Source of the DNA: Mobula hypostoma
Lineage: Eukaryota
DNA: 64,000 nt
Assembly: GCF_963921235.1 (NCBI RefSeq)
Contig: NC_086107.1
Location: forward strand, 110,486,001-110,550,000
Reading direction: 5' to 3'
Shown: positions 3,081 to 61,544 of the stretch, one piece after another
Layout of the letters: the number at the start of each line of letters is the position of its first letter
Numbering within the stretch: the first letter of the stretch is position 1
Made by a program: the position numbers and the translations under genes
Notes under the pieces: generated by a model
Seen by the model: the letters and a program-made list of their open reading frames with translations, nothing else
What the model was told of the DNA's origin: nothing
Database searches by the model: none

Positions 3081-3194
3081 TATACTTAATTTGTAATGTT
3101 CCGTGCTGTTGCTGCAAAAAGCAAAATTTCATGGCATTCATTGCCTGTGGCAATAATAAACTTAAACTTGAATATAAATGTTGCCAGAACCAAA

Positions 3195-12425: not shown

Positions 12426-12509
12426 CCAGGCTGTCCTCAAAGATTCAAAGTACACTTACTATCAAAGAATGTCTAAATTACGCAACCTTGAGATTTGTCT
12501 GCTTACAAG

Positions 12510-13200
12510 TAACACGCACACAATGCTGGAGGAACTCAGCAGGCCAGGCAGCATCTATGGAAAAGAGCACAGTTGAAGTTTTGGGCTGAGGCCCTTCGGC
12601 AGGCCTGGAGAAAAAAATATGAGGAGTTAAGATAAGAAGGCAGGGGGAGGGGAGGAGTTAAGAGTAAGAAGGCAGGAAGAGTTAAGGGTAAGGAGTTAAG
12701 GAGGAGTTAAGAGTAAGAAGAGTATGAAGAGTATGAAGAGTAAGAAGAGAAGAGTATGAGGAGTTAAGAGTAAGAAGGCAGGGGGAGGGGAGGAAGAAAC
12801 ACAAGGTGATAGGTGAAATCATGGGGAACGGGGGAGGAGTGAAGTAAAGAGCTGGACAGTTGCTTGGTGAAAGAGATACAGGGTTGGAGAAGAGGGAATC
12901 TGATAGGAGAGGACAGACGGCCATGGAAGAAAGAAAAGGGAGAGGAGCACCAGAGGGAGGTAATGGGGAGGTAAGGAGATAAGGTGAGAGAGGGAAATGG
13001 GAATGGGGAATGGTGAAGGAGATGGGGGGGAAGGGCATTACCGGAAGTTTGAGAAATCGATGTTCATGCCATCAGATTGGAGGGTAGCTAGACAGAATAT
13101 AAGATTTTGCTCTTCTAACCTGAGTGTGGCCTTATCACGACAGTAGAGGAGGCAGTGGACTGACATGTCAGAATGGGAATGGGAAGTGGAATTAAAATGG
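12510..13200 (-). mobile_element. Penelope-like 3' fragment/pLTR with internal GA-rich expansion
   Basis: caatgctggaggaactcagcaggccaggcagcatc pLTR end; antisense GMNIDFSNF at 13040-13070. Confidence 0.75.
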
Positions 13201-22186: not shown

Positions 22187-24273
22187 TCTTGAGGTACATG
22201 TCCACAGATCCCCGAAAGTTGCCTCACAGGTAGATAGGGTAGTTAAGAAAGCTTATGGGGTGTTAGGTTTCATAAGTCGAGGGATAGAGTTTAAGAGTCG
22301 CGGGGTAGGTTCCTCTCTTCCTTTTGATTTGAAACGCCTTAAACAGGTGTCTAACCCGATAGTTAAATATACCTTGCGTATTTGGTTTCAATTCAGAAAA
22401 TTTTTTGATCTTAATCAATTTGGGTTAGTGATTCCTATTTTAGGTAACATATTTTTTCCTCCCTCTTTTACGGATCGTGCTTTTCAAACTTGGAAGACTA
22501 AGGGTATTTCACGGTTTTTGGATTTATTTTTAGATGGTTCCCTTATGTCTTTTGAACAATTATCTAATAAATATAACTTATCAAGAATACATTTTTTTAG
22601 ATATCTACAAGTTAGAAATTTCCTAAGTACTGTACTTTCTTCCTTTCCAATGCTTCCTCCTACATACATTTTAGATACTATAATCAACCTTAATCCATGT
22701 CAGAAAGGTGCATCGGCTATGATTTATAATATTATTATGAAACTTAGGAAAGCTCCATTTGATAAGATTAGGGTAGATTGGGAACAGGAATTGGGGTTTA
22801 CCATTTCCGTGGATGACTGGGGGCAGATTTTACAATTAGTCAATACTTCCTCTATCTGTGCTAAACATTCCCTAATTCAATTTAAAGTTGTTCATAGAGC
22901 ACATATGTCCAAAGATAAGTTAGCGCGCTTTTATTCTCATATTAATCCTTTTTGTGATAGATGTCCGGGGCAGATAGCCTCTTTAACTCATATGTTTTGG
23001 TCTTGCCCTACTTTGGAAACTTTTTGGAGAGACATTTTTAATATTATCTCTAAGATATTGAATATAGATATCTCTCCTCACCCTATTACTGCTATCTTTG
23101 GACTACCTAAAATTTCCAGTAATCTTTCCCCTTCAGCCCGTAGAATGATTGCATTTCTTACTTTAATGGCAAAAAGATGTATCTTACAACATTGGAAAGA
23201 GCTTAATGCTCCAACTACCTTTTTTTGGTTTTCTCAGACGATATTATGCTTGAATTTGGAGAAAATTAGAAGCAATCTTTATGACTCCTTATTTAAATTT
23301 GAACAAACTTGGAGATCTTTTATTCAATATTTTCATTTAATGTAATATATACCCTTCTTGTTTTTTTTTACTGTTTTTAATGGAGGTCGGGATTGAGGAC
23401 GTGATTTTAAGTTTAACTCTGTTTGGTTTCAAGTTAGCCCATTGCTTTGCTTTGCTTTTAGTTAGTTGCACGGTGGGTTTTTTTTGGGGGGTTTTTTCCT
23501 TTTCTCTATTGATATATATATAAAATTAGTATACTATTATGTTACCTTGGTATGTTATGTTTAAATTACATTGTTTGTAGTATTTTTTTTGTATTAATAT
23601 CTTCTGTAATTTTATTATATTCTAACAGTGTATTAGTGGCTATATGGCTTACCTTTTTGTATACTTATTCAATAAAAAGATTTAAAAAGAAAGAAAGAAA
23701 AGAGTTGCGGGGTAATGATGCAGCTCTATAAAGCTCTGGTTAGGCCACACTTGGAGTACTGTGTCCAGTTCTAGTCGCCTCACTATAGGAAGGATGTGGA
23801 AGCATTGGAAAGGGTACAAAGGAGATCTACCAGGATGTTGCCTGGTTTAGAGAGTATGGATTATGATCAGAGATTAAGGGAGTTAGGGCTTTACTCTTTG
23901 GAGAGGAGGAGGATGAGGGGAGACATGATTGAGGTATACAAGATATTAAGAGGAATAGATAGAGTGGATAGCCAGCGCCTCTTCCCCAGGGCACCACTGC
24001 TCAATACAAGAGGATATGGCTTTAAAGTAAGGGGTGGGAAGTTCAAGGGGGATATTAGAGGAAGGTTTTTTACTCAGAGAGTTGTTAGTTCGTGGAATAC
24101 ACTGCCTGAGTCGGTGGTGGAGGCAGATACACTAGTGAAATTTATGGAGGAATATGGAGGAATTTAAGGTGGGGGGTTATATGGGAGGCAGGGTTTGAGG
24201 GTCGGCACAACAATGTGGGCCGAAGGGCCTGTACTGTGCTGTACTATTCTATGTTCTATGTTCTATGTTCTAT
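22187..24273 (+). mobile_element. CR1 3' fragment split by an L1 insertion
   Basis: VHRSPKVASQVDRVVKKAYGVLGFISRGIEFKSRG continues after 23714 as VMMQLYKALVRPHLEYCVQF..ERVQRR..; (CTATGTT)n tail. Confidence 0.9.
22308..23699 (+). mobile_element. Young 5'-truncated L1-clade LINE (ORF2 C-terminus, 3' UTR, A-rich tail)
   Basis: Open frame to 23345 with CDRC..SLTHMFWSC zinc knuckle; AATAAA at 23671; (GAAA)n tail; 15-bp TSD aagagt(c/t)gcggggta at 22293-22307 and 23700-23714. Confidence 0.92.
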
Positions 24274-24544: not shown

Positions 24545-26085
24545 CATTGAGATATTTGGGTGTTGGTATGTCCGTATGTTAGAATATTTGTCCGTTGGCA
24601 TGTGGGTGTGCTGGATTCAGTGTATTAGAAAGTCTGTGTATTGATGTGTGCCCAGATTTTGAAGTGTTTGTGTCAGAATGCTTATGTGTTGGAACATGTC
24701 TGTGCGTTGCTATGTTTGTGTATCGAAACGAGTTTGTATGTCGGAATAACTGTGTCTTGGAAGATCTATATGTTTAAATGTGTGTTGGCATTTCTGTTGT
24801 CTTTGTTAAAACGTTTGTGCATCAGCATGTGACTGTGATGGTTCATTTGAATGTTGAAATGTTTTGGGATTCCTGTGCTTTGTGTTTTGGTAAATATATC
24901 GATGTCTGTGTTGGTATGATTCTGAATTAATCTGTTAAAATATTTATGTGCTGTCTTGTCCATGAGATGGAAAATCTGTGTGTTTTTTTTGTGTTGGAAT
25001 AAGACTGCATGTTTCTGTGTTGGAATGTGGTCATATGTTGGTATGCTGGGTATTGAAGTGTGTCTGTGTGTTGGTAGGTTTGTGTATTGGTAGTGAGTGT
25101 GTTGGTATGTCTGGATATTGGTACTGTCTGTGTGCTGGTGGGTCGGTGTGCTGGAATCTGTATTGGTAGGCCTGTGTGTTGGTATGTCTGCATGTTGGTA
25201 GTTTGTGTGTGGGCTTTATCTGTGTTGATAGGTCTGTTTTTGGTATAGCATTGTCTGATGGTAGGTCTTTGTGTTGTTATGTCTGTGTGTTTGTGTGGGG
25301 GTATATGTGTGTGTGTGGTATATCTGTGTGCTGGAATGTCATGTGTTGGTATGTCAATCTGTTGGTATTTCTGTTTGTTTGTGTGTTGGTATATCTGTGT
25401 TTTGGAATGTCTGTGTACTTGTGTGTTGGTATATGTGTGTGTGGTATATCTATGTGTTGGTGTGTTAATCTGCTGGTATGTCTGTGTATTTATTGTCACT
25501 TTGTCTGTTGGTATGTTGATGTGTTGGGATTTTGGTACATTGGTTTGTTGGTATGTCTGTGTACTGGTATGTTGGGATGTTGGTATGTTGGTGTGTTGGT
25601 ATGTTGGTGTGTTGGTGTGTTGGGACATTGATGTGTTGGTATGTTGGTGTTGGTGCGTTGGTATGCTGGCATGTTGGTATGTTGGTGTGTAGGAATGTTG
25701 GTGTGTTGGTATGTTGGTGTGTTGGGACATTGATGTGTTGGTATGTTGGTGTGCTGGTGTGTTGGTATGTTGGTGTGTTGGTATGTTGGTGTGTTGGTAT
25801 GTTGGTATTGGTATGTTAGTGTGTTGGTATGTTGATGCGTTGGTATGTTAGGGTATTGGTATGTTGGGAGGATGGTGTGTTGGTTTGTTGGTATGTTAGT
25901 GTGTTGGTAGGTCTATGCTGGAAGGTCTGCCTGTTGGTAGCTTTGCTAGACCTGTTGTAGATATGTCTGCGTCAGGAGTTCTGTGTTTTTGTAGTTTTGT
26001 TTGGTAGTTCTGTTGGCTAGTGCTTTGTGATTTGACATGTCTCTATGTGTTGGTAAGTTGGAGTGTTTTTATGTGTTTACATGAC
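24545..26085. repeat. GT-rich low-complexity tract grading into (TGTTGGTA/TGTTGGTG)n
   Basis: The 8-bp unit is clearest at 25570-25910. Confidence 0.9.
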
Positions 26086-26999: not shown

Positions 27000-29060
27000 G
27001 AGGAGTGGAGAGGAGTAGGTGCGGTGGAAGGTGGGGTGGGAGTGATGGGGTTGGGGGGGTGGAGAGTGTAAGAGTGTGGGAACTTGTGTGTGGCTGGCTG
27101 GGTCTGTGGTGTGTAGGCAGTGAAGGTGCTGAGTGTGTAGGTTTGGGATGTGGTGAGGAGTTCAGACTCGGGGTGGAAGGGATTGATTCGTGTGTTGGTG
27201 AGGTGAGTATAGGCACTTGGGTGTCATCATGTAGTGACGGAAGGGTGTGGTTTAACGGTGGTGAGAAGAGTGTAGGGATTGTGTGGGCTGTGGGCTTTCA
27301 GCTGAAGGGACATAGGGGGTTGTTGGCTGGGCTTATAGGTCAGTGTAGGGTGTGTCAGGGGCAGGCTGTTAGGCTTCGCATGTAAGGATAGTGTTGTGTG
27401 CATTGGGGTCTGGTATTCAGTTTAGGATGTAGGAAGAGTGATGTAGGACAGTACGGTGAGTGTTGGTGACTTGGTGATGGGTTTGGGGTGAAGGGCCAGA
27501 GTTATAGATTCGTTTTAGGTTAGATTAGATTCTACTTTATTGTCATTGTACTGAGTACAGATACAAAGCCAATGAAATGCAGTTAGCACCTAACCAGAAA
27601 TGCACAGAATAGCGTTATTTACAAAATAACTGTGAATAAAAAGTAGGTGCTACGGCACACAAATATAAAAGTACTGAGACAGTACAATATGGGTGCGATA
27701 CTGCTTAGTGAGGTGTGGCATTTGCCAGGACCTGGGTGTTGAATTTGGGATTTAGAGGTAGGGTTGTAGTTTGGTGTGACATGTGCTGGGGTCTGGGTGT
27801 TGGGCTTGGGGTGTAGGGCAGGGCTGTAGATTGGTGCAGGGTGTGTCAGGGTGAGCTGTAAGTTTTGAGGTGTAGGGGTCGGGCTGTAGATCAGTGCAGG
27901 AGTGCTGGTGCCTGGGAGTTTGCTTTGAGGTGTAGAGGTAGGGTGGAAAATTGGTGTGAGGAGTGTTAGCATAGGGATATTGGGTTTGGTATGTAGCGGG
28001 TAGGGTGGTAGATTGGCGTGTGGTGGTAGGGTGGAAAATTGGTGTGGGGAGTGTTGCCGTATGGTTATTAGATTTGGTGTGTAGCGGGTAGGGTGGTAGA
28101 TTGGTCTGTGATGACTGTTGGTGTATGGGTGTTGGATTTGGCGTGTGGTGAGTATGGTTGTAGAATCGTGCTGGGAGGGTTGATGTCTTGATTTTGAGTT
28201 TCGGGTGTAGCGGTAAGGTTTTAGAATGGTGCAGGGAGTGTTGGCGTCCATTTGTAGGATTTGGGGTGTTGTGGTAGGGTAGTGTTGGGTTTGGGGTGTA
28301 GTGGTAGGGTTGTAGATTGGTGCAGGGAGTATTGGTATCCATTTGTAGGGTTTGGGGTGTAGTGATAGGGTAGTTTTGGCTTTGGGGTGTAGTGGTAGGG
28401 TTGTAGATTGGTACAGGGAGTGTTGGTATTCATTTGTTGGGTTTGCGGTGTAGTGGTAGGGTTGTAGATTGGTACAGGGAGTGTTGGTATTCATTTGTAG
28501 GGTTTGGAGTGTTGTGGTAGGGTAGTGTTGGGTTTGGGGTGTAGTGGTAGGGTTGTAGATTGGTGCAGGGAGTGTTGGTATTCATTTGTTGGGTTTGCGG
28601 TGTAGTGGTAGGGTTGTAGATTGGTACAGGGAGTGTTGGTATTCATTTGTAGGGTTTGGAGTGTTGTGGTAGGGTAGTGTTGGGTTTGGGGTGTAGTGGT
28701 AGGGTTGTAGATTGGTGCAGGGAGTGTTGGTATTCATTTGTAGGGTTTGGAGTGTTGTGGTAGGGTAGTGTTGGGTTTGGGGTGTAGTGGTAGGGTAGTG
28801 TTGGGTTTGGGGTGTAGTGGTAGGGTTGTAGATTGGTACAGGGAGTGTTGGTATTCATTTGTAGGGTTTGGGATGTTGTGGTAGGGTAGTGTTGGGTTTG
28901 GGGTGTAGTGGTAGGGTTGTAGATTGGTACAGGGAGTGTTGGTATTCATTTGTAGGGTTTGGAGTGTTGTGGTAGGGTAGTGTTGGGTTTGGGGTGTTGT
29001 GGTAGGGTTGTGTTGGGGTCTGGGTGTTAGGTTTGGGGTGTAGGGGCTAGAGTTGTAGAC
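27000..29060. repeat. G-rich tract ending in a 30/61-bp minisatellite (homogeneous at about 28250-29010)
   Basis: Units ggtttggggtgtagtggtagggtagtgttg (30 bp) and ggtttggggtgtagtggtagggttgtagattggtacagggagtgttggtattcatttgtag (61 bp). Confidence 0.9.
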
Positions 29061-29406
29061 ATTGCAGGAAGAGTCAGGGTGGATCGTAGGACTTGATGAG
29101 AGGTCAGCCCCTCCGGCCACCCGTTGCCCTACCCCAGACTGAAGCCTCGGATCAGGGCGGAGGGGGGAACAGCAGGGGGCGCCAGGAGCTCGGATCTGCG
29201 TCTCAGAGCCCACGGACACATGACGCGCCGCCTCTGCTGTCTCCTAGCGATACAGCAGGAGGGAGAGATTCCAGACCTCCCTTCCCACATCCTCATGTGT
29301 GCTTGATGTATCTGTGGAAAGCATCTGGAGACTGACCTGGCATTTTCACACTTTTTTTTCACCATTTTTTTTTACCCCGCTCAAATCTGGAATTGAGGGT
29401 GGCTGT

Positions 29407-29503: not shown

Positions 29504-30502
29504 CTTTTGTCAGTGGAACACTTTAGGTTTTCCCCCTCCCTTTGTATGTGTCTTGCCTCCTGAAGGAATCTCTCGTTGGATGTAATTTCGGTGTGTGGGT
29601 GAATTGATCAGGAAGAGAGGACAAAAAAAAATTGGGTTTAGCGTTCCTGTAGCCCCCCGCTACAGAAGAGGCAGGCAGAGGAAATTCTTCTTGTAAGTAG
29701 ATGCTGCTTTTTTTTCAACCTGTGTCCTTTTCTCGGTTCTGACTGCCTGTGTTTTTGTTCTTGACATCTGACAGTAGATAGGAATTGCATTGGGAGAACT
29801 CAGGGACGATCCCCCACAATTGTCTCGATCGGCATTTTTGCACGAATTGGTCGGCTTTCCAAAAGTGGACGTATTATTTCATAGCCTCGAGGTAGTGGAC
29901 ATTGTCATTCTAACATGTGAGATCCTGACTGCCTTTTTTTTCAAAAAAAAAGGGGGGAGTGGGTGGTGTTGGTTACAAATCCCGTCAGATTGCAGAGTTT
30001 TTTTTTAAAGATGAGCTGGGATATTTTTTGCATGTTAATGCATTTGATACGGAGGGATTGAATTCAAACAATCGCCTTGAGCTCGACACCCCAAGTTCCT
30101 CTATTATTCCACGGCTGACGTTCCCAATAATTATTGATTATTCCCTGTCTCCCCTCCCTCCACCACCCCCCCACCCCCTCTCTCTTTCAACAGGGAGAAA
30201 AATCCGTGGGCAGCGAGAATATGGGATTAACACGGTCGGAGATATAACACAAGCCGCGCCAGCCTCTTCGCTTCTCCCTCCCCAGCCCCTTCACTGTTCC
30301 ATTTTCTCTCCCTCTCCCCAAAGTCAAGGCCACCCTCCCCGGAGAGAGGGGGAGGGGGAATGGGGGCGACCTGACGACTTCGAAGCTGGACGGGTCCGAG
30401 GAGGAAACGGGTCTCCAGTGAGCAGGGGAGGGGGGGGAAGCGAGGGGAGAGACGGCGGGCGGTCGGAACGAGAAGCGGATCCACACGTCCACGCTGTTAA
30501 AC

Positions 30503-30542
30503 ATGCTCAGCTCTGTCACCAACCCGTCCTGCGAGCTGCAAG
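30503..30542 (+). CDS. CARMIL2: First coding exon (40 nt, phase-1 donor) of a CARMIL-family capping-protein regulator, most similar to CARMIL2/RLTPR
   Basis: aacATG at 30503; reads MLSSVTNPSCELQ+G, then a strong donor AAG|GTAAGA at 30543; lies at the end of a CpG-rich tract. From memory, human CARMIL2 begins MAQTPDGISCELR(G) and CARMIL genes have a 40-nt first coding exon. Only 13 codons are visible, so paralog assignment is tentative. Exon 2 was not found in the window. Confidence 0.6.
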
Positions 30543-31065
30543 GTAAGACTCGTGGAAATTACAACGGGCACCGGGAGAGGGATGATAACCAGACAGGCTG
30601 GGATTTCATGGCATAAGTTAACCCCCCCCGGGGCTCAGAGCTGATGACAGACCCCACGCTTTTTTTTAAGAAGTCACCGGTTAGGTGATCAGGCCACGGC
30701 CAAGGTGCTTGGGTTAAAGGTGGATTTCTACCTCTCGGGCGAGCTGAGCGAGGGAAGCACGCTGGTTAGCGTTGCGAGACCCGGACTGGGTTGTTAAATA
30801 GGTCATTTTAAAAGAGACAGGCCAGTGACGAGGGAGTCTGGGTTGCAGGAGGTGCTGCTGAGATGCACATCACATAGCTGACCCTCCGTGCTGTGTCCAG
30901 CTGCTGAACAGGCCCGCGCACGGGCGACGAGTGTGGACGCGTGGAACGCGCAGAGGGCGTGGAGACTTGGTCAGACTCCACGAGGAGCAAGCATCCACGT
31001 TATCATTAAGCTTTGGGAGAAGGGTGGAGGGCAAGAATTTTCAAAACTAGCCAGAAGTGACAAGG

Positions 31066-31285
31066 AGACACAAGAGATTCTGCAGATGCTGGAAATTTGG
31101 GGCAACACACACACACACAATGCTGGAGGAACTTAGCAGGTCAGGCAGCATCTGTGAAGGGGAATGAACTGTCCATTGTTTGGGGGGGGTGTGTGACCCA
31201 GACCTGTTGTAGGGGCTTGGTCCAAAACATCTCCATAGATGCTGCCCGACCTGCTAAGTATCTCCAACATTTCTATATGCTGCTG
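31066..31285. mobile_element. Decayed palindromic Penelope pLTR element
   Basis: atgctggaggaacttagcaggtcaggcagcatct ... agatgctgcccgacctgctaagtatctccaacat inverted arms. Confidence 0.7.
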
Positions 31286-32408
31286 CAAGGGCTTGTTGGT
31301 TTGACTGGAGCTGGACTAAGTGATGAGCTTAGACTGTAGTGCGCAGAGGAGGGGCAAGGGGGTGATCTGGCTCAAATTATCCCAGGACCTTGATTGGGTG
31401 AGTTTAGGGAAACCATTACCCCATCTGCAGCAATAACAAACTGTGGGGGTCTGGCCAAGCTCAGGTAGAGCTCTGTCACACAGTAGGGGAGGTTGTAAAT
31501 GTCTCTTCCTTCCCCTGACGCTGTTCCAGAATTGTGGATTTCTGTCTGATGAAGTGGGTAAACGATGTGCAATGCAGGTTGTGTCAGAAGATGTAGAGGA
31601 GGTTTGACCCAAAGGCAGAGCACTGGAGACGACTTAGGAGTAAACGATATTTTACTAATAAACTGCAAAATAACAAGCCACAAGGGGCCACAAGACAAGA
31701 GAGAGCAGGTACTTAACGCGACAAGGTAACTGAAGGCTAGGAGTGACTGGTTGAGGCCGGCTGGTTCGATGGGTGAGCAACGGATTGTGGATGAGAGCAG
31801 GGTTTAAATAGGCTGCAGGTGATGTGTTGGGAATGGGTGGCAGGTGACTTCTGTTAGCTGGGTGGAGACTGGGAGGCAGCTGCCTGTGCAGGCCTGACAA
31901 GTTTGGCCATATTTTAACCAAACAGGAGAAGAAGCTTGGCGAATATTGAACATTATGGCACACTTCGGCTCACTGATCCCTGCACCAAACACGATGCCGA
32001 ATTAAACAACATCTCTTCTGCCTGCAGATGATCGATATCCCTGCATATTCATACATCTATCTCACAGCCTTTTAAACACTCTATCATATCTGTTTCCACC
32101 ACTACTCCTGGCAGATCATTCCACACACCTACCACTCTCTGTGTAAAATAAAACTTACCCTGAACACCTCCTTTAAACTTCTCTCCATGCACCTTGAATG
32201 TATGTCCCTTAGTGCTTGACATTTCTATTCTGGAGAAAAATGATTCTTACTGTCTGCCCTATTTATTGCCTCTCATAATGTATTCTAATTTTTTTACGGC
32301 ATGTTGTAGATAACAGAATCCATCCAGGATAAATAATTGGCCATTTATAAATTGTTTATTAGTATCACATGTACTGAAATGCTAGGCAGATTATTCCAGA
32401 CATAAGTA

Positions 32409-36554: not shown

Positions 36555-37330
36555 TCGAGTTTACTGAGGTAATGTTGCTGCTCTGTAAAACTCTGGGTAG
36601 ACCACACTTGGAGTATTGTGTTCAGCTCTGGTCTCCTCATTACAGGAAGTGTGTGGAAGCTTTAGAGGGTGCAGAGGAGATTTACCAGGTCACAAACACG
36701 AGAGAATCTGCAGGTGCTGGAAATCCAAAGCAACACCCACAAAATGCTGGAGGAACTCAGCAGGCCAGAGAAGAGTAAACAGTTGATGTTTTGGGCCGAG
36801 ACCCTTCATTAGTTCTGATGAAGGGGTTTTGGCCTGAAATGTCGACTGTTTACTCTTTTCCCCAGATGTTGAGATTTACCAGGATGCTGCCTGGACTAGG
36901 GAACATGATTTATGAGGATAGGTTGAGTGAGCTTGGACTCTTTTCACTTTGGTGTGAAGGAGGATGAGAGGAAACTTGACAGATGTGCACAAGGTGACAA
37001 GAGGCATGAATTGAGTGGACAGCTAGGGACTTTTCCCTAGGGTGGAAGTGGCTAATAAGAGGGGTATAATTTTAGGGTGATTGGATGAAAGTATAGAAGG
37101 AATGTCTGAGGTAAGCTTTTTACACAGATAGTGGTGGGTGTGTGGAACACCCTGCCAGGGTTGGTAGTGGAGGCAGATACATTAGGGGCATTTAAGAGAC
37201 TCTTAGATAGGCACATAGAAGATAGAATAATGGAGGGCTATGTAGGAGGGAGGAGTTAGATTGATCTTGGAGTAGGTTAAAAGGTTGGCACAATATTGGG
37301 GGCTGACGAGCCTGTACTTTGTTCTGCGTT
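36555..37330 (+). mobile_element. Old CR1 3' end hosting a Penelope mini-element
   Basis: EVMLLLCKTLGRPHLEYCVQLWSPHYRK; continues after 36883. Confidence 0.85.
36690..36870. mobile_element. 181-bp palindromic Penelope pLTR element with hammerhead-ribozyme cores
   Basis: 13-bp TSD gagatttaccagg (36677-36689, 36871-36883); inverted arms centred near 36813; ctgatga..gaaa core starting at 36815. Confidence 0.85.
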
Positions 37331-38089
37331 CACTGATGTTGTCTATAAGAGATGTTTAAATGGACTTGCGAAGGCAGAGATGATTGTGACTGACGATAAA
37401 AGACCAGTGTTTGTTGCTTTTATGTGTCGTCCCTGCCTGCTGCTGTGGTTGGTGTGACTTACCCATTTAATTAAACTTGGATTATGAATAACAGAAAAGG
37501 GAATTTCTATAGCCTGCTATCACTGCAAAAATAAAATCTGGATTTGAGGCCAACCATGCATATTTCAATATACTGAGAAAAATATTATACTGTACATAAC
37601 TGTGCATGATACTTTATGATCCACCCTATGGCTTTCTTAGCAAGGTCATATCATACAAATGGTCATAATCATGATCAAATGGTTACTGTTCAGGACGTGC
37701 TTTCTTCTCGCTGCTACCGTCAGCAAGAAGGTACAAGAACCTTAGGTTTATGAATGGTTACGACCCCTCAACCATCAGGTTCTTGAACCAAGGGGATAAC
37801 TACACTCAACTTCACTTGTCCCATCATTGAAATGTTCCCACAACCTATGGATTCACCTTTGAGGTCTCTTCATCTCACATTCTCAATATTTATTGTTTAT
37901 TTATTTATATTATCGTTTCTTCTCTTTGGATTTGCGCAGCTTGTTGTCTTCAGCTCTCTGGTTGGCGGTCGTTCATTGAGTCTGTAATAGTTACTATTCT
38001 ATAGATTTGCTGAGTATGCCCACAAGAAAATGAATCTCAGAGTTAAATCTCAGGTAGGGTACGATAACAAAATTCACATTGAACTTTGC

Positions 38090-38367
38090 CAAGGTAGTGC
38101 AACGGTTAGCGCTCGGGGCATCAAAGTTTGGCGTTCAATTCCAATGTCAACTGTGAGGAATCTGTAAGTCCTCCCCGTGGAATGTGTGGCATTCCTCTGG
38201 GTGCTCCAGTCTCCTTCCACAGTTTAAAGACGTGCCAGTTTGTAGGTTAATTGGACACTGCAGATTGTCCCGTGATTGGGCTCGGGTTAAATTGGGGGGT
38301 TCCTGGGCAGCCCAGCTCGAAGAGCCTATTCTGTGCCGTATCTCAATCAATCAACCAATAAATAAAT
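38090..38367 (+). mobile_element. V-SINE/HE1-like SINE
   Basis: Same head, core and tail as 35945. Confidence 0.75.
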
Positions 38368-39050
38368 TGGTGCAGATGGCCAAACCTGGTCAAAAAAGGT
38401 GAACTTTGGCCTCTGTTTGAAAGGATATGAGCCTGGTTCAGGGAGCAACTCAAGAGATCGGTACCTCGTTGGCTAGGGTAAAGAAAGGCAAGGCCGCAGG
38501 TGACCAGAGTTTGGGAGCAGAGTGACCCTGGGTGGACAAAAGGTTGGAAGGGTTAAGACCATGGTTTTTGAAGATGAAGATAAAATATTGCTGTTGATTT
38601 TTTGGTGAATCGGGAATCGATGTCAGTGAAAATTAAAATCAGTGCATGTTGGAAATCTAAAGTAAACACAGAAAATGCAGGGGATGCTCAGCAGGCTAGG
38701 TCGCTTCTGTGGGAAGAGAAACAGTGATGGCGTTTCTGGGTACTGTTCTGAGAATAGGTACCCTAATCTTCATCATCTTATTTTCAATACTGTTCATGCA
38801 GATCAATTCTCTACAGCGGTGCACCAAAGCAAGGCAAGTTAAACCAATAACAGAATGCCGAATAAAGTGTGGCAGATATAGAGCAAGTACAGTGCAGGCA
38901 GACAGGTGCAAGGCCTTGACAAAGTAGATTCTGAGGTCAAGGGTCAGGATCAACTTTATTCGCCATATACATTTACATGTATTAGGAACTTACTGTGGTG
39001 TGTTGATCTGGGTGTAAAATGTAATAAAAAAACAACAATATTCAACAGTT

Positions 39051-39331
39051 CAAAGTTGCTGGTGAACGCAGCAGGCCAGGCAGCATCTCTAGGAAGGGGT
39101 ACAGTCGACGTTTCTGGCTGAGACCCTTCGTCAGGACTAACTGAAGGAAGAGCTAGTAAGAGGTTTAATCTCTTACTAGCTCTTTCTTCAGTTAGTCCTG
39201 ACGAAGGGTCTCGGCCGGAAATGTCGACTGTACCTCTTCCTAGAGATGCTGCCTGGCCTGCTGCGTTCACCAGCAACTTTGATGTGTGTTGCTTGAAATT
39301 CCAGCATCTGCAGAACTCCTCGTATTTGAAC
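39051..39331. mobile_element. 281-bp palindromic Penelope pLTR element with two opposed hammerhead-ribozyme cores
   Basis: 112-bp arms 39051-39162 and 39170-39281; 11-bp TSD attcaacagtt (39040-39050, 39332-39342). Confidence 0.88.
39189..39230 (+). ncRNA. Minimal type I hammerhead ribozyme motif (opposed copy at 39102-39143, minus)
   Basis: agtc-CTGACGA-agggtctcggccg-GAAA-tgtc-gactg: helix I agtc/gact, CUGANGA and GAAA core, vestigial helix III; helix II carries a mismatch. Confidence 0.65.
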
Positions 39332-39794
39332 ATTCAACAGTTATAAGAATAAAGAATTATATAAAAATAAAGTTAAAGTACAGATGTGGAATAAAGTCTG
39401 CATAAATACTTAAAATGTAAATAGCATTATAAAAGGTGGTTTGAAGTGTTTATAGTGCAGTGGTGGGGGTAATAGATAGAGGAGGGTGGGCGGCTAACTA
39501 GAATAGTTGATCTTATTGTGCAAGGAAACCAGTCAGTTTTCTTATAACAGCGGGGTAGAAGCTGCCCCTCAGCCTGGTGGGACGTGCTTGTGGGCGTTTG
39601 CATCTTCTGCCTGATAGAGGAGAGAATGTCCAGGAAGGGTGATGTCTTTGATTATGTTGGCTGCTTTGGAGACAGTGTCCATGGAGGAGATGCTGGTTTC
39701 TGTGATGTGCTGAGACAGTGGGCTATTGTAACGTATTGTAAAATTCACTGAATAGATAGTGACATATAGTATACAGTGGCTATATTTCATTAGG

Positions 39795-40332
39795 ACCTTG
39801 AGAAGAATTGGTCTGTCTCGCAGATTTCTACAGATATATCATGGAGGGCATCCTAACTGGTTGCATCACTGACTGGATTTGGGGGGGCTGGTGGTGGTGG
39901 CGGGCGGGGGGAGAGAGCCACTGCACAGGATCGGGAAAAGCTGCAGAAAGTTGTAAACTCAGCCAGCTCCATCATGGACGCTAGCCTCCCCAGCATCCAG
40001 GAAACCTTCAAAGTGTGATGCCTCAAAAAATGAGGCATCCATCGTTAAGGACCTCCATCACCCAGGACAAGAGCCTGAAGACCCACACTCAACGTTTCAG
40101 GAACAGCTTCTTCCCCTCCGCCATCAGATTTCTGAAAGGACAATGAACCCATGAACACTTCCCCAGTAATTTTCCCTCTCTTTTTGCACAACTTATTTAA
40201 TTTAGTTTTCTTTTTGTTATATATACTTATTGTAATTTATTGTTTTTTATTGTGTATTGCATTGTACTGCTGTTACAAACCAACAAATTTTGTGATATAT
40301 GCCAGTGATATTAAACTTGATTGTGATTCTGA
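39795..40332 (+). mobile_element. Rex1/Babar 3' fragment
   Basis: DREKLQKVVNSASSIM..; FRNSFFPSAIRFL; gattgtgattctga tail. Confidence 0.8.
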
Positions 40333-40703
40333 CAAAATATGTAATAGTCACTTCGACAAATGGAGCATATTTGTAAAGTACATATAGCAGTCATTGTAAA
40401 GTATATAACCATCATATGGTAAGGCAAGTAGCTAGAGGCTATCTCAGCACATATTTAGATGAAAACTTGTTTGTTTTATGGGGCGTTTCAAGTTGCTCGC
40501 TTGCAGAGAGGAAGTGTTTCTTTGCAGATAAGACACGGCGGCGTGCCATCTTTAACAGTGAAATAAAACGTTTTTCCACTCTGCCTTAAAAATCAGTCTT
40601 CATCCAGGCATTTTCTTACAGTTTGGTGATGTCACTGTCATCCATGAAATGAACGTGGGATCACTAACACTGACATCTTGTGAAGATTAAGCAGAGTCTG
40701 TAA

Positions 40704-44325: not shown

Positions 44326-44557
44326 AAACTCATTTGTCGTTTTTGATGATAAAAACAAAGAGGGCCAATGAGGGAAATGTAGATGAGGTGATATACCTGG
44401 ACTTTCAAGAGTCATCTGACAGGGTGTGATATAATCAGCATAATTGGATTGAAGAATTTGGTGTGAAGGTAACTGCAGTAGAATGGATAGAAAATTGGTT
44501 AAGTAGAGAAAACTGAAAGTTGTGATAAGTTGCTTTTGAGAAAGGAGGAAGTGCACA

Positions 44558-44559
44558 GC

Positions 44560-44614
<55 letters not shown>

Positions 44615-44739
44615 ACTCACACACTCACACACACACACACACTCTCACACACACACACACACACTCACTCACACACACACACACACACACTCTCTCACAC
44701 ACACACTCACTCACACACACACACACACACACACTCACT

Positions 44740-44770
<31 letters not shown>

Positions 44771-44867
44771 ACACACACACAAACACACGCACACACTCAC
44801 ACACTCACACACACACACACACTCTCACACACACACACACACTCTCACACACACACACACACACACA

Positions 44868-44902
<35 letters not shown>

Positions 44903-45033
44903 ACACAAACACACTCACTCACACACACAAACACACTCACTCACACACACAAACACACTCACACACACAAACACACGCACACACTCACACACTCACACAC
45001 ACACACACACTCACTCACACACACAAACACACT

Positions 45034-45070
<37 letters not shown>

Positions 45071-45085
45071 ACACACACAAACACA

Positions 45086-45126
<41 letters not shown>

Positions 45127-45148
45127 GCGCGCGCACACACACACACCC
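44558..45148. repeat. About 590-bp imperfect (CA)n microsatellite
   Basis: Directly visible. Confidence 0.97.
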
Positions 45149-45149: not shown

Positions 45150-45740
45150 TACAAAATGCTGAGGTGCTCCATAGCTCAGGCAGCACCTATAGACAAGAAT
45201 GTATAGTTGATGTTTCGGGAAGAGACCCCCCCATCAGCTGGAAAAGAAGGGGAAAGATGCTAGAATTAGAAGGTGTGGGGGAGGCAGGGTGGAGGGGAAG
45301 GACTGCAAGCTCGAAGGTGATAGGTGAAGCCAGGTGGTTGGCGGGGGAGATGAAATAAGAAGCTGGGAGGTGATAGGTGGTAAAGGTAAAGAGCTGACGA
45401 AGACTGAATCTGATAGGAGGGGACAGTGGACTATGGGAGAAAGGGAAGGAGGAACGGAGCCAGGGGTGGTGATAGGCAGGTGAGGAGGAGAGGTAAGAGA
45501 CGAACCAGAGTGGGGAATGGAAGAAGAAGGGAAATTACCGGAAGTTGGAGAAATTGATGATCATGCCAACAACAGGAATTCTGCAGATGCTGGAAATTCA
45601 AGTATGTTGCTTGATGATCATGCCGTCAGGTTAGAGGTTTATGAGGTGTTACTCCTCCCCCTAAGAGAGGCCTCATAGGAATGGGAATTGGGATTGGAAT
45701 TAAAATGGCCGTCTGCCGGGTAATCCTGCTTTTGGGATGT
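45150..45740 (-). mobile_element. Penelope pLTR/3' fragment
   Basis: acaaaatgctgaggtgctc..aggcagca head followed by the GA-rich UTR. Confidence 0.7.
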
Positions 45741-47127: not shown

Positions 47128-48465
47128 AAGAAACATAGAAACATAGAAACATAGAAAATAGGTGCAGGAGTAGGCCATTCGGCCCTTCGAGCCTGCACCG
47201 CCATTTATTATGATCATGGCTGATCATCCAACTCAGAACCCAGCCTTCCCTCCATACCCCCTGACCCCTGTAGCCACAAGGGCCATATCTAACTTCCTTT
47301 TAAACATAGCTAATGAACTGGCCTCAACAGTTTGCTGTGGCAGAGAATTCCACAGATTCACCACTCTCTGTGTGAAGAAGTTTTTCCTAACCTCGGTCCT
47401 AAAAGGCTTCCACTCTATCCTCAAACTGTGACCCCTCGTTCTAGACCTCCCCAACATCGGGAACAATCTTCCCGCATCTAGCCTGTCCAATCCCTTTAGG
47501 ATCTTATACGTTTCAATCAGATCCCCCCTCAATCTTCTAAATTCCAACGAGTACAAGCCCAGTTCATCCAGTCTTTCTTCATATGAAAGACCTGCCATCC
47601 CAGGAATCAATCTGGTGAACCTTCTTTGTACTCCCTCTATGGCAAAGATGTCTTTCCTCAGATTAGGGGACCAAAACTGCACACAATACTCCAGGTGTGG
47701 TCTCACCAAGGCCTTGTACAACTGCAGTAGTACCTCCCTGCTCCTGTACTCGAATCCTTTCGCTATAAATGCCAGCATACCGTTCGCCTTTTTCACCGCC
47801 TGCTGTACCTGCATGCCCACTTTCAATGACTGGTGTATAATGACACCCAGGTCTCGTTGCACCTCCCCTTTTCCTAATCGGCCACCATTCAGATAATAAT
47901 CTGTTTTCCTATTTTTGCCACCAAAGTGGATAACTTCACATTTATCCACATTAAATTGCATCTGCCATGAGTTTGCCCACTCACCCAACCTATCCAAGTC
48001 ACCCTGCATCCTCCTCACTGCTAACACTGCCACCCAGCTTTGTGTCATCCGCAAACTTGGAGATGCTGCATTTAATTCCCTCATCCAAGTCATTAATATA
48101 TATTGTAAACAACTGGGGTCCCAGCACTGAGCCTTGCGGTACCCCACTAGTCACCGCCTGCCATTCTGAAAAGGTCCCGTTTATTCCCACTCTTTGCTTC
48201 CTGTCTGCTAACCAATTCTCCACCCACACCAATACCTTACCCCCAATACCGTGTGCTTTAAGTTTGCACACTAATCTCCTATGTGGGACCTTGTCAAAAG
48301 CCTTTTGAAAATCCAAATATACCACATCCACTGGTTCTCCCCTATCCACTCTACTAGTTACATCCTCAAAAAATTCTATGAGATTCGTCAGACATGATTT
48401 TCCTTTCACAAATCCATGCTGACTTTGTCCGATCATTTCACCGCTTTCCAAATGTGCTTTCCAAA
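47128..48465 (-). mobile_element. Young 5'-truncated CR1 inserted antisense in the older CR1
   Basis: RT ORFs 47999-48451 and 47233-48147 ([24 protein letters not shown]..) with one frameshift; (CTATGTTT)n tail; tgaagg repeated at 47122-47127 and 48466-48471. Confidence 0.93.
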
Positions 48466-49406
48466 TGAAGGTAGTAGTTAGGAGCTAAATGCCCAAGGTT
48501 ACACATTTGCATCAGAGGGATAGGAAGGTAGGCAGTGGGGGTGGTGTGGCTCTGCTGGTAAAGAATGGCATCAAATCATTAGAAAGATGTGACAGAGGAT
48601 TGGAAGATGGTAAGTCCTCGTGGGTTTAGTTAAGAAACCGTAAGAGTAAGTGGACCCTGATGGCAATTATATACAGGCCACCAAACACTAGCTGGGATGT
48701 GGACTACAAATTACAACGGGAAATAGAAAAGGCCTGTCAAAAGGGCAATGTTATGATGGTCTTGGGAGATTTTAACATGCAGGCAGATTGGGAAAATCAG
48801 GTTGGTAATGGATCTCAAGAGAGTAAATTTGTCGAAATCCTGCAAGATGGCCTTTTAGAGTAATTTGTCATTGAGCCTACTTGGGGATCAGCTATACTGG
48901 ATTGGGTGGTATGTAATGAACTGAAGGCATTTAGAGAGCTTAAGGTAAAGGAACCCTTAGGAGGTAGTGATCACAATATGATTGAGTTCAACTTGAAATT
49001 TGTTAGGGAGAAAGTAAAGTCTGACAACAATATTCAGTTGAGTAAAGCAAATTACAGTGGTATGAGAGAGGAGTTGGCCAAAGTAAATTGGAAGGAGATA
49101 CTGGCAGGGATGACAGCAGAGCAGCAATGGCTTGAGTTTCTGAGAAAAATGAGGAAGGCGCAGGATAGATGTATTCCAAAAACAAAGAAATACTCAAATG
49201 GCAAAATAGTTCAACCATGGCTGACAAGGGAAGTCAAAGCAAATGTAAAAGCAAAAGAGAGGGCATGCAACAAACCAAAAATTAGTGGCAAGATGGAGGA
49301 TTGGGAAGCTATTAAAAACCTACAGAAAGCAACTAAAAGAATCATTAGGAAGGAAAAGATGAAATATGAAAGCAAGCTAGCAAATAATATCAAGGTGGAT
49401 AGAAAA

Positions 49407-49568
49407 CCCTGGGCACCCTCCCAAGACTATGGTCAACATGTTCCTGGAAGACAGCGGCGCGGCTAATGTAGATGAACTGATCACACTGATGAGGGAGAGG
49501 GAGAAGTGGAGAGTCTGTCATGGTGCCCGATGCCGGCCCCCTAGGCCTGAGTCGACGTAGTAGTAGTA
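49407..49568 (+). mobile_element. 162-bp RTE-clade 3' end with (GTA)n tail
   Basis: 12-bp TSD gtggatagaaaa (49395-49406, 49569-49580); PGHPPKTMVNMFLEDSG..ELITLMREREKWR. Confidence 0.8.
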
Positions 49569-51450
49569 GTGGATAGAAAAAGCCTTTTCAAGTATATAGA
49601 AATAAAATAGAAATGATAGGGGGTATAGAACTGCTAGAAAATGAGGCTGGAGAAATAATAATGGGGAACAAGGAGATGGCAGATGAACTAAATGAGTATT
49701 TGATATCAGGCTTCACCGTGGAAGACACTAGCAGTGTGCCAGGTGTCAAAGGGTGTGAGGGAGTAGAAGTGAGTGAAGTTAACTATTACAAGGGAGAAGG
49801 TGCTCAAAAAGCTGAAAGACCTAAAGGTACATAAGTCTCCTAGACCAGATGAACTACACCCTAGAGGTCTGAAAGAGGTAGCAGTAGAGATTGTGGAGGC
49901 ATTACTAATGATCTTTCAAGAATCATTGGACTCTGGCAAGGTTCCAAAGGGCTGGAAAATTGCAAATGTCGCTTCACTTTTTAAGAAAGGAGGAAATCAT
50001 CAGAATAGAAATTATACACCAGTTAGCCTGACCTCAGTGGTTAGGAAGATGTTGGAGTCAATTGTTAAGGATGAGGTTATGGAGTATTTGGTGATACAGG
50101 ACAAGATAGGACAAAGTCAGCATGGCATCCTTAAGGGAAAATCTTGCCCTACGAACCTGTTGGAATTCTTTGAGGAGATTACAAGTAGGATAGATAAAAG
50201 GGATGCAGTGAATGTTTTATATTTGGATTTTCAGAAGGCCTTTGACAAGGTGCCACACATGAGGCTGCCTACCAATTTAAGAGCCCATGGCGTTACAGGA
50301 AAGTTACTGGCATGGTTAGAGCATTGGCTGATTGGTAGGAGGAAGCAACTGGGAATAAAAGGATCCTTTTCTGGTTGGCTGCCAGTGACTGGTGATGTTC
50401 CGCAGGGGTTAGTGTTGGAACCATTTCTTTTTATGCTGTATATCAATGATTTAGATGATGGAATAGATGGCTTTGTTGCCAAGTTGCCAGATGATATGAA
50501 GATTGATGGACGGACAGGTAGTGTTGAGGAAACAGGTAGGCTGCAGAAGGACTTAAACAGATTAGGAGAATGGGCAAGAAAGTGACAAATGAAATACAAT
50601 GTTGGAAAATGCATGGTCATGCGCTTTGGTAGAAGAAATAAATGTGCAGACTACTTTCTAAATGGGGAGAAAGTCCAAAAATCTGAGATGCAAAGGGATT
50701 TGGGAGTCCTGGTGCAGAACACCCTGAAGGTTAACTTGCAGTCGGTGGTGAGGAAGGCAAATGCAATGTTAGCATTCATTTCAAGAGGTCTAGACTATAA
50801 GAGCAGGGATGTGATACCAAGACTTCATAAGGCACTGGTGAGGCCTCACCTTGAGTATTGTGAACAGTTTTGGGCTCCTCATCTAAGAGAAGATGTGCTG
50901 GCATTGGAGAGGGTTCAGAGGAGGTTCACAAGGATAATTCCGGGAATGAAAGGGTTCTCATATGAGGGACGTTTGATGATTTTGGGCCTGTTCTCACTGG
51001 AATTTAGAAGGATGGGGGGGAGTGCGGTGGGAATTTCATTGAAACGTTTCAAATGTTGAAAGGCCTAGACAGAGTAGATGTGGAAAGGATATTTCCCGTG
51101 GTGGGGGAGTCTAGGACAAGAGGGCACAGCCTCAGGATCGTGGGGCATCCATTTAAAACAGAGATGTGGACAAGTACCTTTAGCCAGAGGCTGGTGAATT
51201 TGTGGAATTTGGAGACCAGGTCGTTAAGGCAGAGATTGATAGGTTTTTGATTGGACACGGCATCAAAGGTTACAGGGAGAAGGCTGGGGTGTGGGGCTGA
51301 GGATGTAAAAAAGGATCAGCCATGATTGAATGACAGAGCAGACTTGATGGGCCAAATGGGCTAATTTTGCTCCTATGTCATGGTCTTGTGGTCTAATTAT
51401 TTAATGATTTTGTAATTGTAATACAATTTATATGTCATAAAGTGTATAAT

Positions 51451-53638: not shown

Positions 53639-53819
53639 TACTGAGATATACAACTCAATGTATAGTATACTGAGTTGTATACTATTCAACTCTACATCTA
53701 TAGACTGAGTACTATACTAAGTTGTATACTATATAACTCAGTATAGTAGTCAGTCTATAGGTGTCTTTTATAATTGTGCAATTTCCAATATAAAGGGGCA
53801 GACGGTACTGTAAAGCATT

Positions 53820-60473: not shown

Positions 60474-60884
60474 TAAATTGTACCATTTAACACACAGAGG
60501 CATAATCTAGGTTAGATAGTGCGCTCAGGATATAAGGACCAATTTATTAGTGACTTGTTATTTGGGTATGTATTGTAAAACAATTAACGAAGGTGGCCAA
60601 ACTACTAACCCTTGGAGCTCCTTGTGATAATGTTGACAATGCCATTTCTAAATATTTTAAGATGCTGCATGATATATAGCAGAGGGGACCGCAATATTTT
60701 GGTACATATTGTACAGAATTTAATAGCTACTTACTGAAGCCCATCCCCCCCTACAGGGGCATATGTGAGTCCTCTGTCTTGGGTCAGTCTTTCTAGTTGT
60801 CTCTAGCTGTAGCTCATCTTCGAAGATCCTTCTTATACCAGGGGTGAGGTCTTTGAAGCTTCTGTTGGCGTTTCTGTAGCTCTT

Positions 60885-61540
60885 ACATAAGAACATAGGA
60901 GCGGAACTGCTCCAGAAATGGGAGCAGGAGTCGGCCATCTGGCCTGTCGAGCCTGCTCCGCCATACAATAAGATAATGGCTGATCTGACCATGGATTCAT
61001 CTCCACCTGCCTCCCTTTTCCCCATAACCCTTAATTCCTCTACTTTGCAAAAATCTATCCAACCTTAATATATTTACTGAGGCAGCCTCCACTGCTTCAT
61101 TGGGCAGAGAATTCCACAGATTCACCACCCTCTGGGAAAAGCAGTTCCTTCTCATCTCCATCCTAAATCTACACCCCTGAATCTTGAGGCTATGTCCCTT
61201 AGTTCTGGCCTCACTTACCAGTGGAAACAACTTTGCTGCCTCTATCTTATCTATTCCTTCCATAATTTTGTATGTTTCTGTCAGATCTCCTCTCATCTTT
61301 CTGAATTCCAGCGAGTACAGTCCCAGGCGACTCAATCTTTCCTCATTGTCTAACCCCATCATCTCTGGAATCAACCTGACAAACCTCCTCTGCACTGCCT
61401 CCAAAGCCAGTAAGCCAGTATATCCTTCCTCAAGTATGGAGACCCAGAACTGGACGCAGTACTCCAGATGTAGCCTCACCAGGACCCTGTACAGTTGCAG
61501 CATAACCTCCTTGCTCTTAAATTCAATTCCTCTAGTGGCA
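60885..61540 (-). mobile_element. CR1 3' end
   Basis: RGIEFKSKEVMLQLYRVLVRLHLEYCVQFW..LGLYSLEFRKMRGDL. Confidence 0.88.
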
Positions 61541-61544
61541 AGGA

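What the first reader, a model, noticed from the sequence alone, without database searches (positions are those of the whole stretch)
39040..39342. TSD-flanked palindromic mini-element carrying two head-to-head hammerhead ribozyme cores
Seen: a 281-bp insertion bounded by an exact 11-bp duplication (attcaacagtt), made of two 112-bp inverted arms around a 7-nt spacer. Each arm has agtc-CTGACGA-helix II-GAAA-(c/t)gtc-gactg, and the arms match the pLTR ends of the Penelope fragments in this window. Known: Penelope-like elements carry minimal type I hammerheads with a vestigial helix III that are thought to cleave as dimers, and they often form inverted structures on insertion. Inference: this is a non-coding, ribozyme-bearing, MITE-like Penelope derivative. 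Transcription in either direction gives one sense hammerhead plus its antisense, so the RNA should fold into a roughly 110-bp hairpin that masks the ribozyme and could feed Dicer or ADAR. It lies in the putative CARMIL intron 1 and would be co-transcribed. Both cores have a helix II mismatch, so this copy may be inactive.
Basis: partly seen in the sequence, partly recalled or inferred. Interest (0 to 1): 0.7.

Follow-up and report, generated by a model that had tools for sequence, protein, structure and literature searches.

The report
Fold-back Penelope retroelement stump, ray
This palindrome is a short leftover of a very common jumping gene in rays, laid down in the mirror-image-plus-tail shape already known for that class, with two damaged self-cutting RNA motifs, so it is mostly ordinary.

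Summary
The 281-bp insert (39051-39331) has an exact 11-bp TSD. Its two arms (about 116 bp, 6 mismatches) meet at one central base, and a 50-bp tail sits on the right side only. That is the published insertion shape of endonuclease-bearing Penelope-like elements: inverted pLTR, one-sided tail, TSD. The parent is most likely Neptune-type, in a ray. In public contigs the arm is a huge repeat family, but its other copies continue into ordinary element sequence where this one folds back, and at most one contig in four runs crosses this junction. A second fold-back in the window has its own TSD and junction; a third is older and looser. Both hammerheads fit the minimal type but have lost the G10.1-C11.1 pair. 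In either transcript the antisense arm is made first, so cleavage is unlikely. The scan found this structure before in shark windows. One unexplained detail: arm mismatches are G·T on the + strand in 6 of 6 here and 9 of 10 in the second element, but 2 of 8 in the third.

The parts
39040..39050 (+). Left target-site duplication, 11 bp, in A/T-rich flank; begins with ATT; last base is shared with the left arm (1-nt microhomology)
39051..39165 (-). Left, inverted, tail-less copy of the pLTR end; carries 5 of the 6 arm differences (3 A>G, 2 C>T on +), polarity inferred from family letters
39103..39138 (-). Minimal type I hammerhead motif, left: core and ACGU palindrome intact, pair 10.1-11.1 is G·A; predicted cut after 39107
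39166..39166 (.). Single-base centre of the head-to-head junction; it can be read as one more parental base of the left arm
   Evidence: loose-end consensus before 39167
39167..39281 (+). Right, sense copy of the pLTR end, 5'-truncated at 39167
39194..39229 (+). Minimal type I hammerhead motif, right: helix I 39194-97/39226-29, core 39198-204, extra A 39205, helix II 39206-217 with G·G at 10.1-11.1, GAAA 39218-21, palindrome changed to AUGU; predicted cut after 39225
39282..39331 (+). One-sided 50-bp PLE 'tail'; family copies often end near 39290-39294 and coverage falls again towards 39331
39332..39342 (+). Right target-site duplication, identical to the left
36677..36883 (.). Second, independent PLE fold-back: 181-bp insert 36690-36870, 13-bp TSD 36677-36689 / 36871-36883, tail on the left, junction near 36813; empty site seen in another copy of the host LINE at 56236-56248
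31068..31290 (.). Third, older and looser inverted PLE end pair, tail on the left, no TSD of 7 bp or more found
12503..13200 (-). Older PLE 3' fragment linking the same kind of pLTR end (81% over 83 nt to the arm) to the C-terminus of the RT/GIY-YIG ORF

Best explanation
A single, dead integration product of a high-copy endonuclease-bearing Penelope-like retrotransposon (most likely Neptune clade) in a ray. The element's GIY-YIG endonuclease nicked an A/T-rich site with an 11-nt stagger (inferred from the TSD). Its reverse transcriptase started at the tail end of the element RNA (39331), copied 165 nt through the hammerhead, and stopped at 39167. The mirror arm was then made from the same template, most simply by the new cDNA end turning back and copying itself for about 116 nt, and was joined to the other target end through one base of microhomology. 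This gives a head-to-head palindrome with a tail on one side and a TSD. It has since decayed (6 arm differences, half of them at CpG). If transcribed in either direction, the antisense arm is made first and a roughly 115-bp hairpin forms; the two cores lie on opposite strands and cannot form the sense-sense dimer that minimal hammerheads need; both lack G10.1-C11.1. So it most likely neither cleaves nor propagates as a unit. Shown: anatomy, family membership of the arm, private junction, damaged cores. Inferred: order of synthesis, self-priming, inactivity.
For: Anatomy matches published PLE insertions: inverted pLTR, TSD of 8-10 bp and tail on one inverted pLTR (PMC3846280); inverted 5'-truncated copy and 30-40 bp one-sided tail (PMC8557442); paired minimal hammerheads 100-700 bp apart on opposite strands (PMC4209133); tail equals the distance between two RT start sites, ATT-preferring nicks on both strands (PMC11167929). 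Arm is a large family: 70,474, 52,815, 4,399 and 18,059 contigs laid in the 4 runs, with summed depth near 1.5e7 on the arm against 16.3 on a flank contig in X1. Loose ends before 39167 (214, 204, 15, 39 contigs) share a pyrimidine-rich parental consensus in all 4 runs, not the fold-back. Contigs running over the stretch's ends: 1, 1, 0, 1; only X1's can be at the junction side. A second fold-back with its own TSD, junction and demonstrable empty site lies 2.2 kb away. One-template origin: arms end within 1 nt of each other, and both differ from the family at 39217/39115, where C plus T make up 6.99e6 of 7.07e6 depth in X1. Parent ORF: the window fragment hits Mobula and Hypanus proteins at 72-81% (3 of 4 candidates) that carry GIY-YIG below the curated cut-off; 5 of 5 longer homologues scanned carry RT plus GIY-YIG; 114 of 125 homologues with the endonuclease motif have a Cys-rich linker. 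Hairpin -236.8 (+) and -215.4 (-) kcal/mol against -7 to -9 for each hammerhead region alone.
Against: No genome was held, so junctions could not be counted genome-wide. One search shows only the best-supported rows (81 joints and 1,226 loose ends hidden), X1 was saturated, X5 was read to about 84%, and contigs drop rare variants. No empty site was seen for this locus. The tail (50 nt) is longer than the 30-40 nt in the papers. The ORF link is through an older subfamily in the window, not this subfamily. A 1-nt centre is too tight for a plain snap-back primer and needs added or lost bases. The strand-biased G·T pattern is not explained by this model.
Confidence: 0.87

Rival explanations
1. Same origin, different step: twin priming. 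A dimeric PLE protein primes from both nicks on one RNA molecule, at two start sites 50 nt apart; both cDNAs run to that molecule's 5' end and are joined head to head by template jumping. Confidence is for this step, given the best explanation.
For: The anole PLE protein cleaves and extends both strands, starts at two internal sites and is predicted to be a dimer (PMC11167929). It explains the one-sided tail, the 1-nt symmetric junction and the shared rare base without needing a hairpin loop.
Against: The tail-less arm ends at the 39281 equivalent, about 10 nt short of the family's main end cluster at 39290-39294. In the second element it ends about 40 nt shorter still, and that junction sits in a short self-complementary stretch just 5' of the core, which suits fold-back priming.
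Confidence: 0.3
2. A non-autonomous, MITE-like palindromic family that is mobilised as a unit.
For: Compact, non-coding, TSD-bounded, young arm subfamily (13,774 of 70,474 contigs in X1 are 99% or more alike).
Against: Tail on one side only; different junctions in the window's other fold-backs; at most 1 junction-crossing contig in 4 runs.
Confidence: 0.04
3. The insertion was a single arm, and the mirror arm arose later by template switching during DNA replication.
For: Template switching can create an inverted repeat in one step (10.1101/2023.04.19.537475, passages); it also explains arm identity and the shared rare base.
Against: The TSD encloses both arms and is intact, so the inverted arm lies inside the integration boundaries; the same shape recurs in this window and across PLE clades.
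Confidence: 0.05
4. The stump has become a working hairpin RNA on the + strand (host pre-mRNA), kept fully paired by selection and feeding Dicer or ADAR against the PLE family.
For: All 6 arm mismatches are G·U in the + RNA, and 9 of 10 transitions in the oppositely oriented second element; background is 587 of 1,106. A CpG island with an ATG and splice donor on + lies upstream. Penelope inverted repeats match siRNA-producing regions in Drosophila (PMC3681739).
Against: Third element 2 of 8; all three pooled 17 of 24, p = 0.06; no change on both sides of a pair; pattern found after looking; mutation or repair bias could give it; host gene unconfirmed.
Confidence: 0.06

Closest known systems
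Insertions of EN+ Penelope-like elements with inverted pLTR and one-sided tail (Arkhipova et al. 2013, PMC3846280; Craig et al. 2021, PMC8557442)
   Same: Head-to-head inverted pLTR, palindromic junction, tail on one arm, short TSD, self-priming proposed as the cause.
   Different: Here the direct copy is truncated to 165 bp, so no ORF remains; the tail is 50 nt rather than 30-40; the junction is symmetric to 1 nt; the host is a ray.
Minimal type I hammerheads of metazoan PLEs (Cervera and de la Peña 2014, PMC4209133)
   Same: Core, extra nucleotide between 9 and 10.1, 4-bp helix I, palindromic 15.2-16.2 in place of helix III, pairs of motifs on opposite strands.
   Different: Helix II is 4 bp; both copies here have lost G10.1-C11.1 and the right one has a U·G at 15.2-16.2; the family itself often reads U at 11.1.
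Poseidon element of the green anole, in vitro (Frangieh et al. 2024, PMC11167929)
   Same: Two RT start sites giving a tail; A/T-rich target with ATT; hammerhead in the pLTR.
   Different: Different clade (linker Cys motif points to Neptune here); that paper does not model the inverted arm in the parts read.
Non-LTR retrozymes (10.64898/2026.07.22.740005)
   Same: Non-coding, hammerhead-bearing, PLE-derived.
   Different: Retrozymes are head-to-tail tandem repeats with a hammerhead in each unit; this is one head-to-head pair.
MITEs (definition recalled)
   Same: Short, non-coding, hairpin-forming, TSD-flanked.
   Different: No terminal inverted repeats at both ends, no uniform multi-copy structure, retroelement origin.

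Membership tests
EN+ Penelope-like element insertion | pLTR end carrying a hammerhead motif | tested here: met
EN+ Penelope-like element insertion | Adjacent inverted 5'-truncated copy, head to head | tested here: met
   described
EN+ Penelope-like element insertion | Tail extension at one end only | tested here: met
   39282-39331, 50 nt; two end zones in family coverage; papers give 30-40 nt
EN+ Penelope-like element insertion | Short TSD in A/T-rich target | tested here: met
   11 bp exact; empty site shown only for the second element
EN+ Penelope-like element insertion | Parent encodes RT plus C-terminal GIY-YIG | tested here: met
   Through an older related fragment at 12503-13200 and its homologues; not shown for this exact subfamily
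Neptune clade | [quoted passage not shown] | tested here: met
   C-x2-5-C-x2-C in 114 of 125 homologues, including P0001-P0003
Neptune clade | RT phylogeny groups with named Neptune elements | not tested
   No named reference set was fetched
Minimal type I hammerhead | CUGANGA, extra nucleotide, GAAA, UH, helix I of 4 bp | tested here: met
   Both arms; 3 sites in window against mean 0.005 in 200 shuffles
Minimal type I hammerhead | G10.1-C11.1 closing pair of helix II | tested here: not met
   G·G right, G·A left; strict descriptor 0 hits; family reads C or T at 39217
Minimal type I hammerhead | Palindromic 15.2-16.2 for dimer pairing | tested here: inconclusive
   Met in the left arm, changed by C>T at 39222 in the right arm
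Minimal type I hammerhead | Covariation in helices I and II | tested here: inconclusive
   7 local copies, 83.9% of 56 cells paired, 0 of 8 pairs changed on both sides, not above shuffles; slid controls 16-43%
Rfam hammerhead families | Covariance-model match | tested here: not met
Minimal type I hammerhead | Self-cleavage as dimer or with PLE protein | not testable with these tools
   Needs bench assay
MITE | Terminal inverted repeats at both ends, flush with the TSD | tested here: not met
   50-bp tail on the right only
MITE | Many copies of one uniform structure | tested here: not met
   At most 1 junction-crossing contig in 4 runs; different junctions in the window
Non-LTR retrozyme | Head-to-tail tandem units, each with a hammerhead | tested here: not met
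   No such direct repeat in 38000-40500; definition

The most novel reading that the evidence does not exclude
Tight PLE fold-backs accumulate arm mismatches with a fixed polarity (G·T on one chromosome strand, whichever way the element points). This would mean either a strand-specific mutation or hairpin-repair process acting on short palindromes in the germ line, or selection that keeps the host-strand RNA hairpin fully paired. Ray genomes would then hold a very large natural set of dated palindromes in which to measure it, and the same set would separate fold-back from twin priming in PLE integration.
Probability: 0.15. Interest if true: 0.55.

Novelty: new member of a known kind. Interest (0 to 1): 0.2.

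Why it matters
As an object it is one of very many dead PLE stumps, and its shape has been in print since at least 2013. Its value is as a record of how PLEs integrate, which the papers read call unresolved: the 1-nt symmetric junction and a rare base shared by both arms say the two arms came from one template. If the G·T strand polarity holds genome-wide, it would point to an undescribed bias in how palindromes mutate or are kept, and to a large source of double-stranded RNA in ray introns.

Tried and rejected
No genome was held for this window, so no genome-wide BLAST. Rfam: nothing at gathering score; miRNA matches below threshold reflect the generic hairpin and were rejected. Pattern scans for the family in viral contigs and metagenome contigs gave 0, 1, 0 and 0 loci; the one locus shares only 20 bases and was rejected as chance. 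Sequencing runs: no RNA holder listed; X9 is only guessed to be RNA, so its coverage was not used as evidence of expression. Whether the second organism (X5) has the insertion could not be read: its flank contig starts at 39425. CARMIL: CpG island at 30001-31000 and a 40-nt ATG-to-donor stretch at 30503-30542 on +; the likeness to a CARMIL N-terminus is recalled, not tested; 0 of 16 candidates scored in a homologue search; none of 16 exon-like candidates of 80-125 nt downstream looked like CARMIL to me; a paper search gave nothing usable (listing only). ADAR editing before insertion was considered for the three A>G changes and set aside: each has a 5' G neighbour, which ADAR disfavours (recalled). 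cDNA-strand deamination was set aside because the two elements point in opposite directions yet share the + strand bias. Covariation on 7 local copies was uninformative. Pfam found nothing on two short window ORF ends. An assembly artefact is unlikely: TSD, six arm differences and a one-sided tail. The L1 fold-back preprint (10.1101/2024.12.14.628481, passages) concerns chromosome rearrangements and was not used.

Full report
Observation. The sequence is as described in outline. An 11-bp direct repeat stands at 39040-39050 and 39332-39342 and nowhere else in the window on either strand. Between the copies lie 281 bp. Both strands fold into a long hairpin (z = -30.8 and -28.1).

The hammerheads. 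Each arm holds helix I (4 bp), the core, one extra A, helix II, GAAA and the cleavage triplet. A descriptor allowing one broken pair in helix II found 3 sites in the window, against a mean of 0.005 in 200 shuffles; a strict descriptor found 0. This matches the minimal PLE hammerhead of Cervera and de la Peña (PMC4209133; I read parts 1-2 of 4, introduction to the start of methods), who list the extra nucleotide, a highly conserved G10.1-C11.1 pair and palindromic positions 15.2-16.2, report no cleavage for a single motif and low cleavage for dimers, and already note pairs of motifs 100-700 bp apart on opposite strands. Both copies here lack the G10.1-C11.1 pair, and the right copy also has C>T in the palindrome. 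Rfam gave no hammerhead match; my inference is that models with a full helix III miss this form. Covariation among 7 local copies was inconclusive. The supplements of that paper, which show vertebrate hammerhead families, were not read and may include this family.

What the arm belongs to. About ten other stretches of the window match the arm or tail. One, 12503-13200 on the minus strand, joins such an end to a broken ORF C-terminus. That 60-residue piece hits proteins of Mobula hypostoma and Hypanus sabinus at 72-81% identity (3 of 4 candidates), so the host is most likely a ray. Those proteins carry a GIY-YIG match below Pfam's cut-off; 5 of 5 longer homologues that I scanned, out of 150 listed, carry RT plus GIY-YIG; 114 of 125 homologues with the endonuclease motif have a cysteine motif in the linker, which marks Neptune and Nematis (PMC8557442, passages). 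No tree was built, so Neptune is likely, not shown.

Family or one-off. No genome was held, so I laid contigs of four public runs on 39150-39750: X1 and X9 (organism A), X5 (B), X10 (C). X1 may be the source of the window and is not independent. The arm is a very large family: 70,474, 52,815, 4,399 and 18,059 contigs were laid, and summed depth on the arm in X1 is about 1.5e7 against 16.3 on a flank contig; the tool warns that this is not a copy number. At 39167, where this copy folds back, 214, 204, 15 and 39 contigs have loose ends whose consensus is the same pyrimidine-rich upstream sequence in all four runs. Contigs reaching past an end of the stretch number 1, 1, 0 and 1. X5's is a listed record at the right end; X10 has depth to the right end; X1 has none there, so its one contig must cross the junction. 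A propagating palindrome would give many such contigs. Limits: X1 was saturated, X5 was read to about 84%, 81 joints and 1,226 loose ends were not shown, and contigs drop rare variants. Family copies end most often at 39290-39294 in A/T-rich flanks (95-150 contigs per position in X1 and X5), and coverage falls again towards 39331, consistent with short and tailed ends.

The window agrees. A second fold-back at 36690-36870 has a 13-bp TSD, its tail on the left and a different junction. Another copy of its host LINE shows the 13-mer once, at 56236-56248, which is a true empty site. A third, older inverted pair lies at 31068-31290 without a detectable TSD. No empty site was found for the element in question.

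What is known. Arkhipova et al. 2013 (PMC3846280; passages and Discussion) describe as typical a direct pLTR, an adjacent inverted pLTR, a 9-bp TSD and a 31-bp tail on one of the inverted pLTRs, and read the palindromic head-to-head junctions as self-priming. Craig et al. 2021 (passages) draw the same arrangement and call its origin unresolved. Frangieh et al. 2024 (PMC11167929; parts 1-2 of 4, main text) show that an anole PLE protein nicks and extends both strands, prefers ATT, starts at two internal RNA sites whose distance is the tail, and that its hammerhead cleaves only with protein. Retrozymes are tandem repeats (10.64898/2026.07.22.740005; part 1 of 5 and passages), which this is not. 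One search for elasmobranch PLE palindromes (listing only) showed no paper on them. Two earlier notes of this scan report the same structure in shark windows; they are unchecked AI notes and I reached my reading before seeing them.

Mechanism. Shown: boundaries, family, private junction, damaged cores. Inferred: nicking with an 11-nt stagger, reverse transcription from the tail end for 165 nt, then a mirror copy of about 116 nt from the same template, closed by one base of microhomology at 39050. Two facts point to one template. The arms start within 1 nt of each other in element coordinates. And at 39217 and its mirror 39115 both arms differ from the family, where C and T make up 6.99e6 of 7.07e6 depth in X1; one transversion in the template followed by CpG decay in the left arm is the simplest account, though later conversion between arms could also do it. 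Fold-back of the cDNA and twin priming on one RNA both fit; I lean to fold-back (about 70:30) because tail-less arms end at varied places. For function, head-to-head geometry means the antisense arm is always transcribed first, the hairpin is worth over 200 kcal/mol against 7-9 for a hammerhead region, and the two cores cannot pair as a sense-sense dimer. Dicer processing is possible by precedent: siRNAs matched inverted regions of Penelope in transformed Drosophila (PMC3681739, passages). Nothing here shows it for this locus, and the CARMIL label is unconfirmed, although a CpG island with a plausible first coding exon on + lies 8.5 kb upstream.

One loose thread. All 6 arm mismatches are G·T on the + strand (two-sided p = 0.03). 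In the second element, which points the other way, a local alignment gives 9 G·T, 0 A·C, 0 other and a wider one 9, 1 and 3; 9 of 10 has p = 0.017 against the window background of 587 G·T to 519 A·C in 28 distant inverted matches. The third element gives 2, 6 and 5, and the three pooled give 17 of 24, p = 0.06. Five small non-PLE palindromes (six alignments) add 4 G·T and 1 A·C. Family letters place five of the six changes in the left arm, all A>G or C>T on + (two rows of that table were hidden). Two paper searches (listings only) showed nothing on such a bias. With two supporting cases, one contrary case and a pattern noticed after looking, this is a lead only.

Verdict. A real, well-preserved example of a known PLE insertion shape; not a MITE family; hammerheads genuine by descent but probably inactive. 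New member of a known kind, interest 0.2.

Noticed in passing
window 36677-36883: Second PLE fold-back with 13-bp TSD inside a LINE fragment; its empty site is visible in another LINE copy at 56236-56248; 9 of 10 arm transitions are G·T on +.
   Followed up: yes
window 31068-31290: Third, degenerate inverted PLE end pair; mismatch polarity opposite to the other two (2 G·T, 6 A·C, 5 other).
   Followed up: partly
window 2257-3520: Two PLE 3' fragments in inverted orientation about 1.2 kb across, tail on the right one; may be one larger inverted insertion; no TSD found.
   Followed up: partly
window 39040-39062: The TSD resembles the element sequence at the point where the left arm begins (8 of 9 bases with one gap), perhaps aiding the join.
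   Followed up: partly
window 39217: The family often reads T at hammerhead position 11.1 (58% of depth in X1, 49% X5, 71% X9, 26% X10), giving a G·U closing pair in place of G-C.
   Followed up: no
window 39202-39277: Run X9, guessed to be RNA, shows less CpG decay across the arm than the DNA run X1, inside and outside the hammerhead; could reflect younger copies being transcribed.
   Followed up: no
window 30001-31000: CpG island with a 40-nt ATG-to-donor stretch at 30503-30542 on +; gene identity unconfirmed.
   Followed up: partly
window 53647-53764: A/T-rich nested palindromes unrelated to the PLE end.
   Followed up: partly
window 45540-45610: A short PLE tail piece (45574-45602) sits inside an older PLE fragment, between two copies of a short repeated stretch that could be a TSD.
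   Followed up: no
window 24766-25940, 27619-29080, 44503-45130: Long low-complexity tandem arrays that produce long spurious ORFs.
   Followed up: no
window 21888-23345, 47233-51400, 58609-61760: Fragments of other LINEs: zf-RVT (below cut-off) and RT matches in Pfam for two of them.
   Followed up: partly
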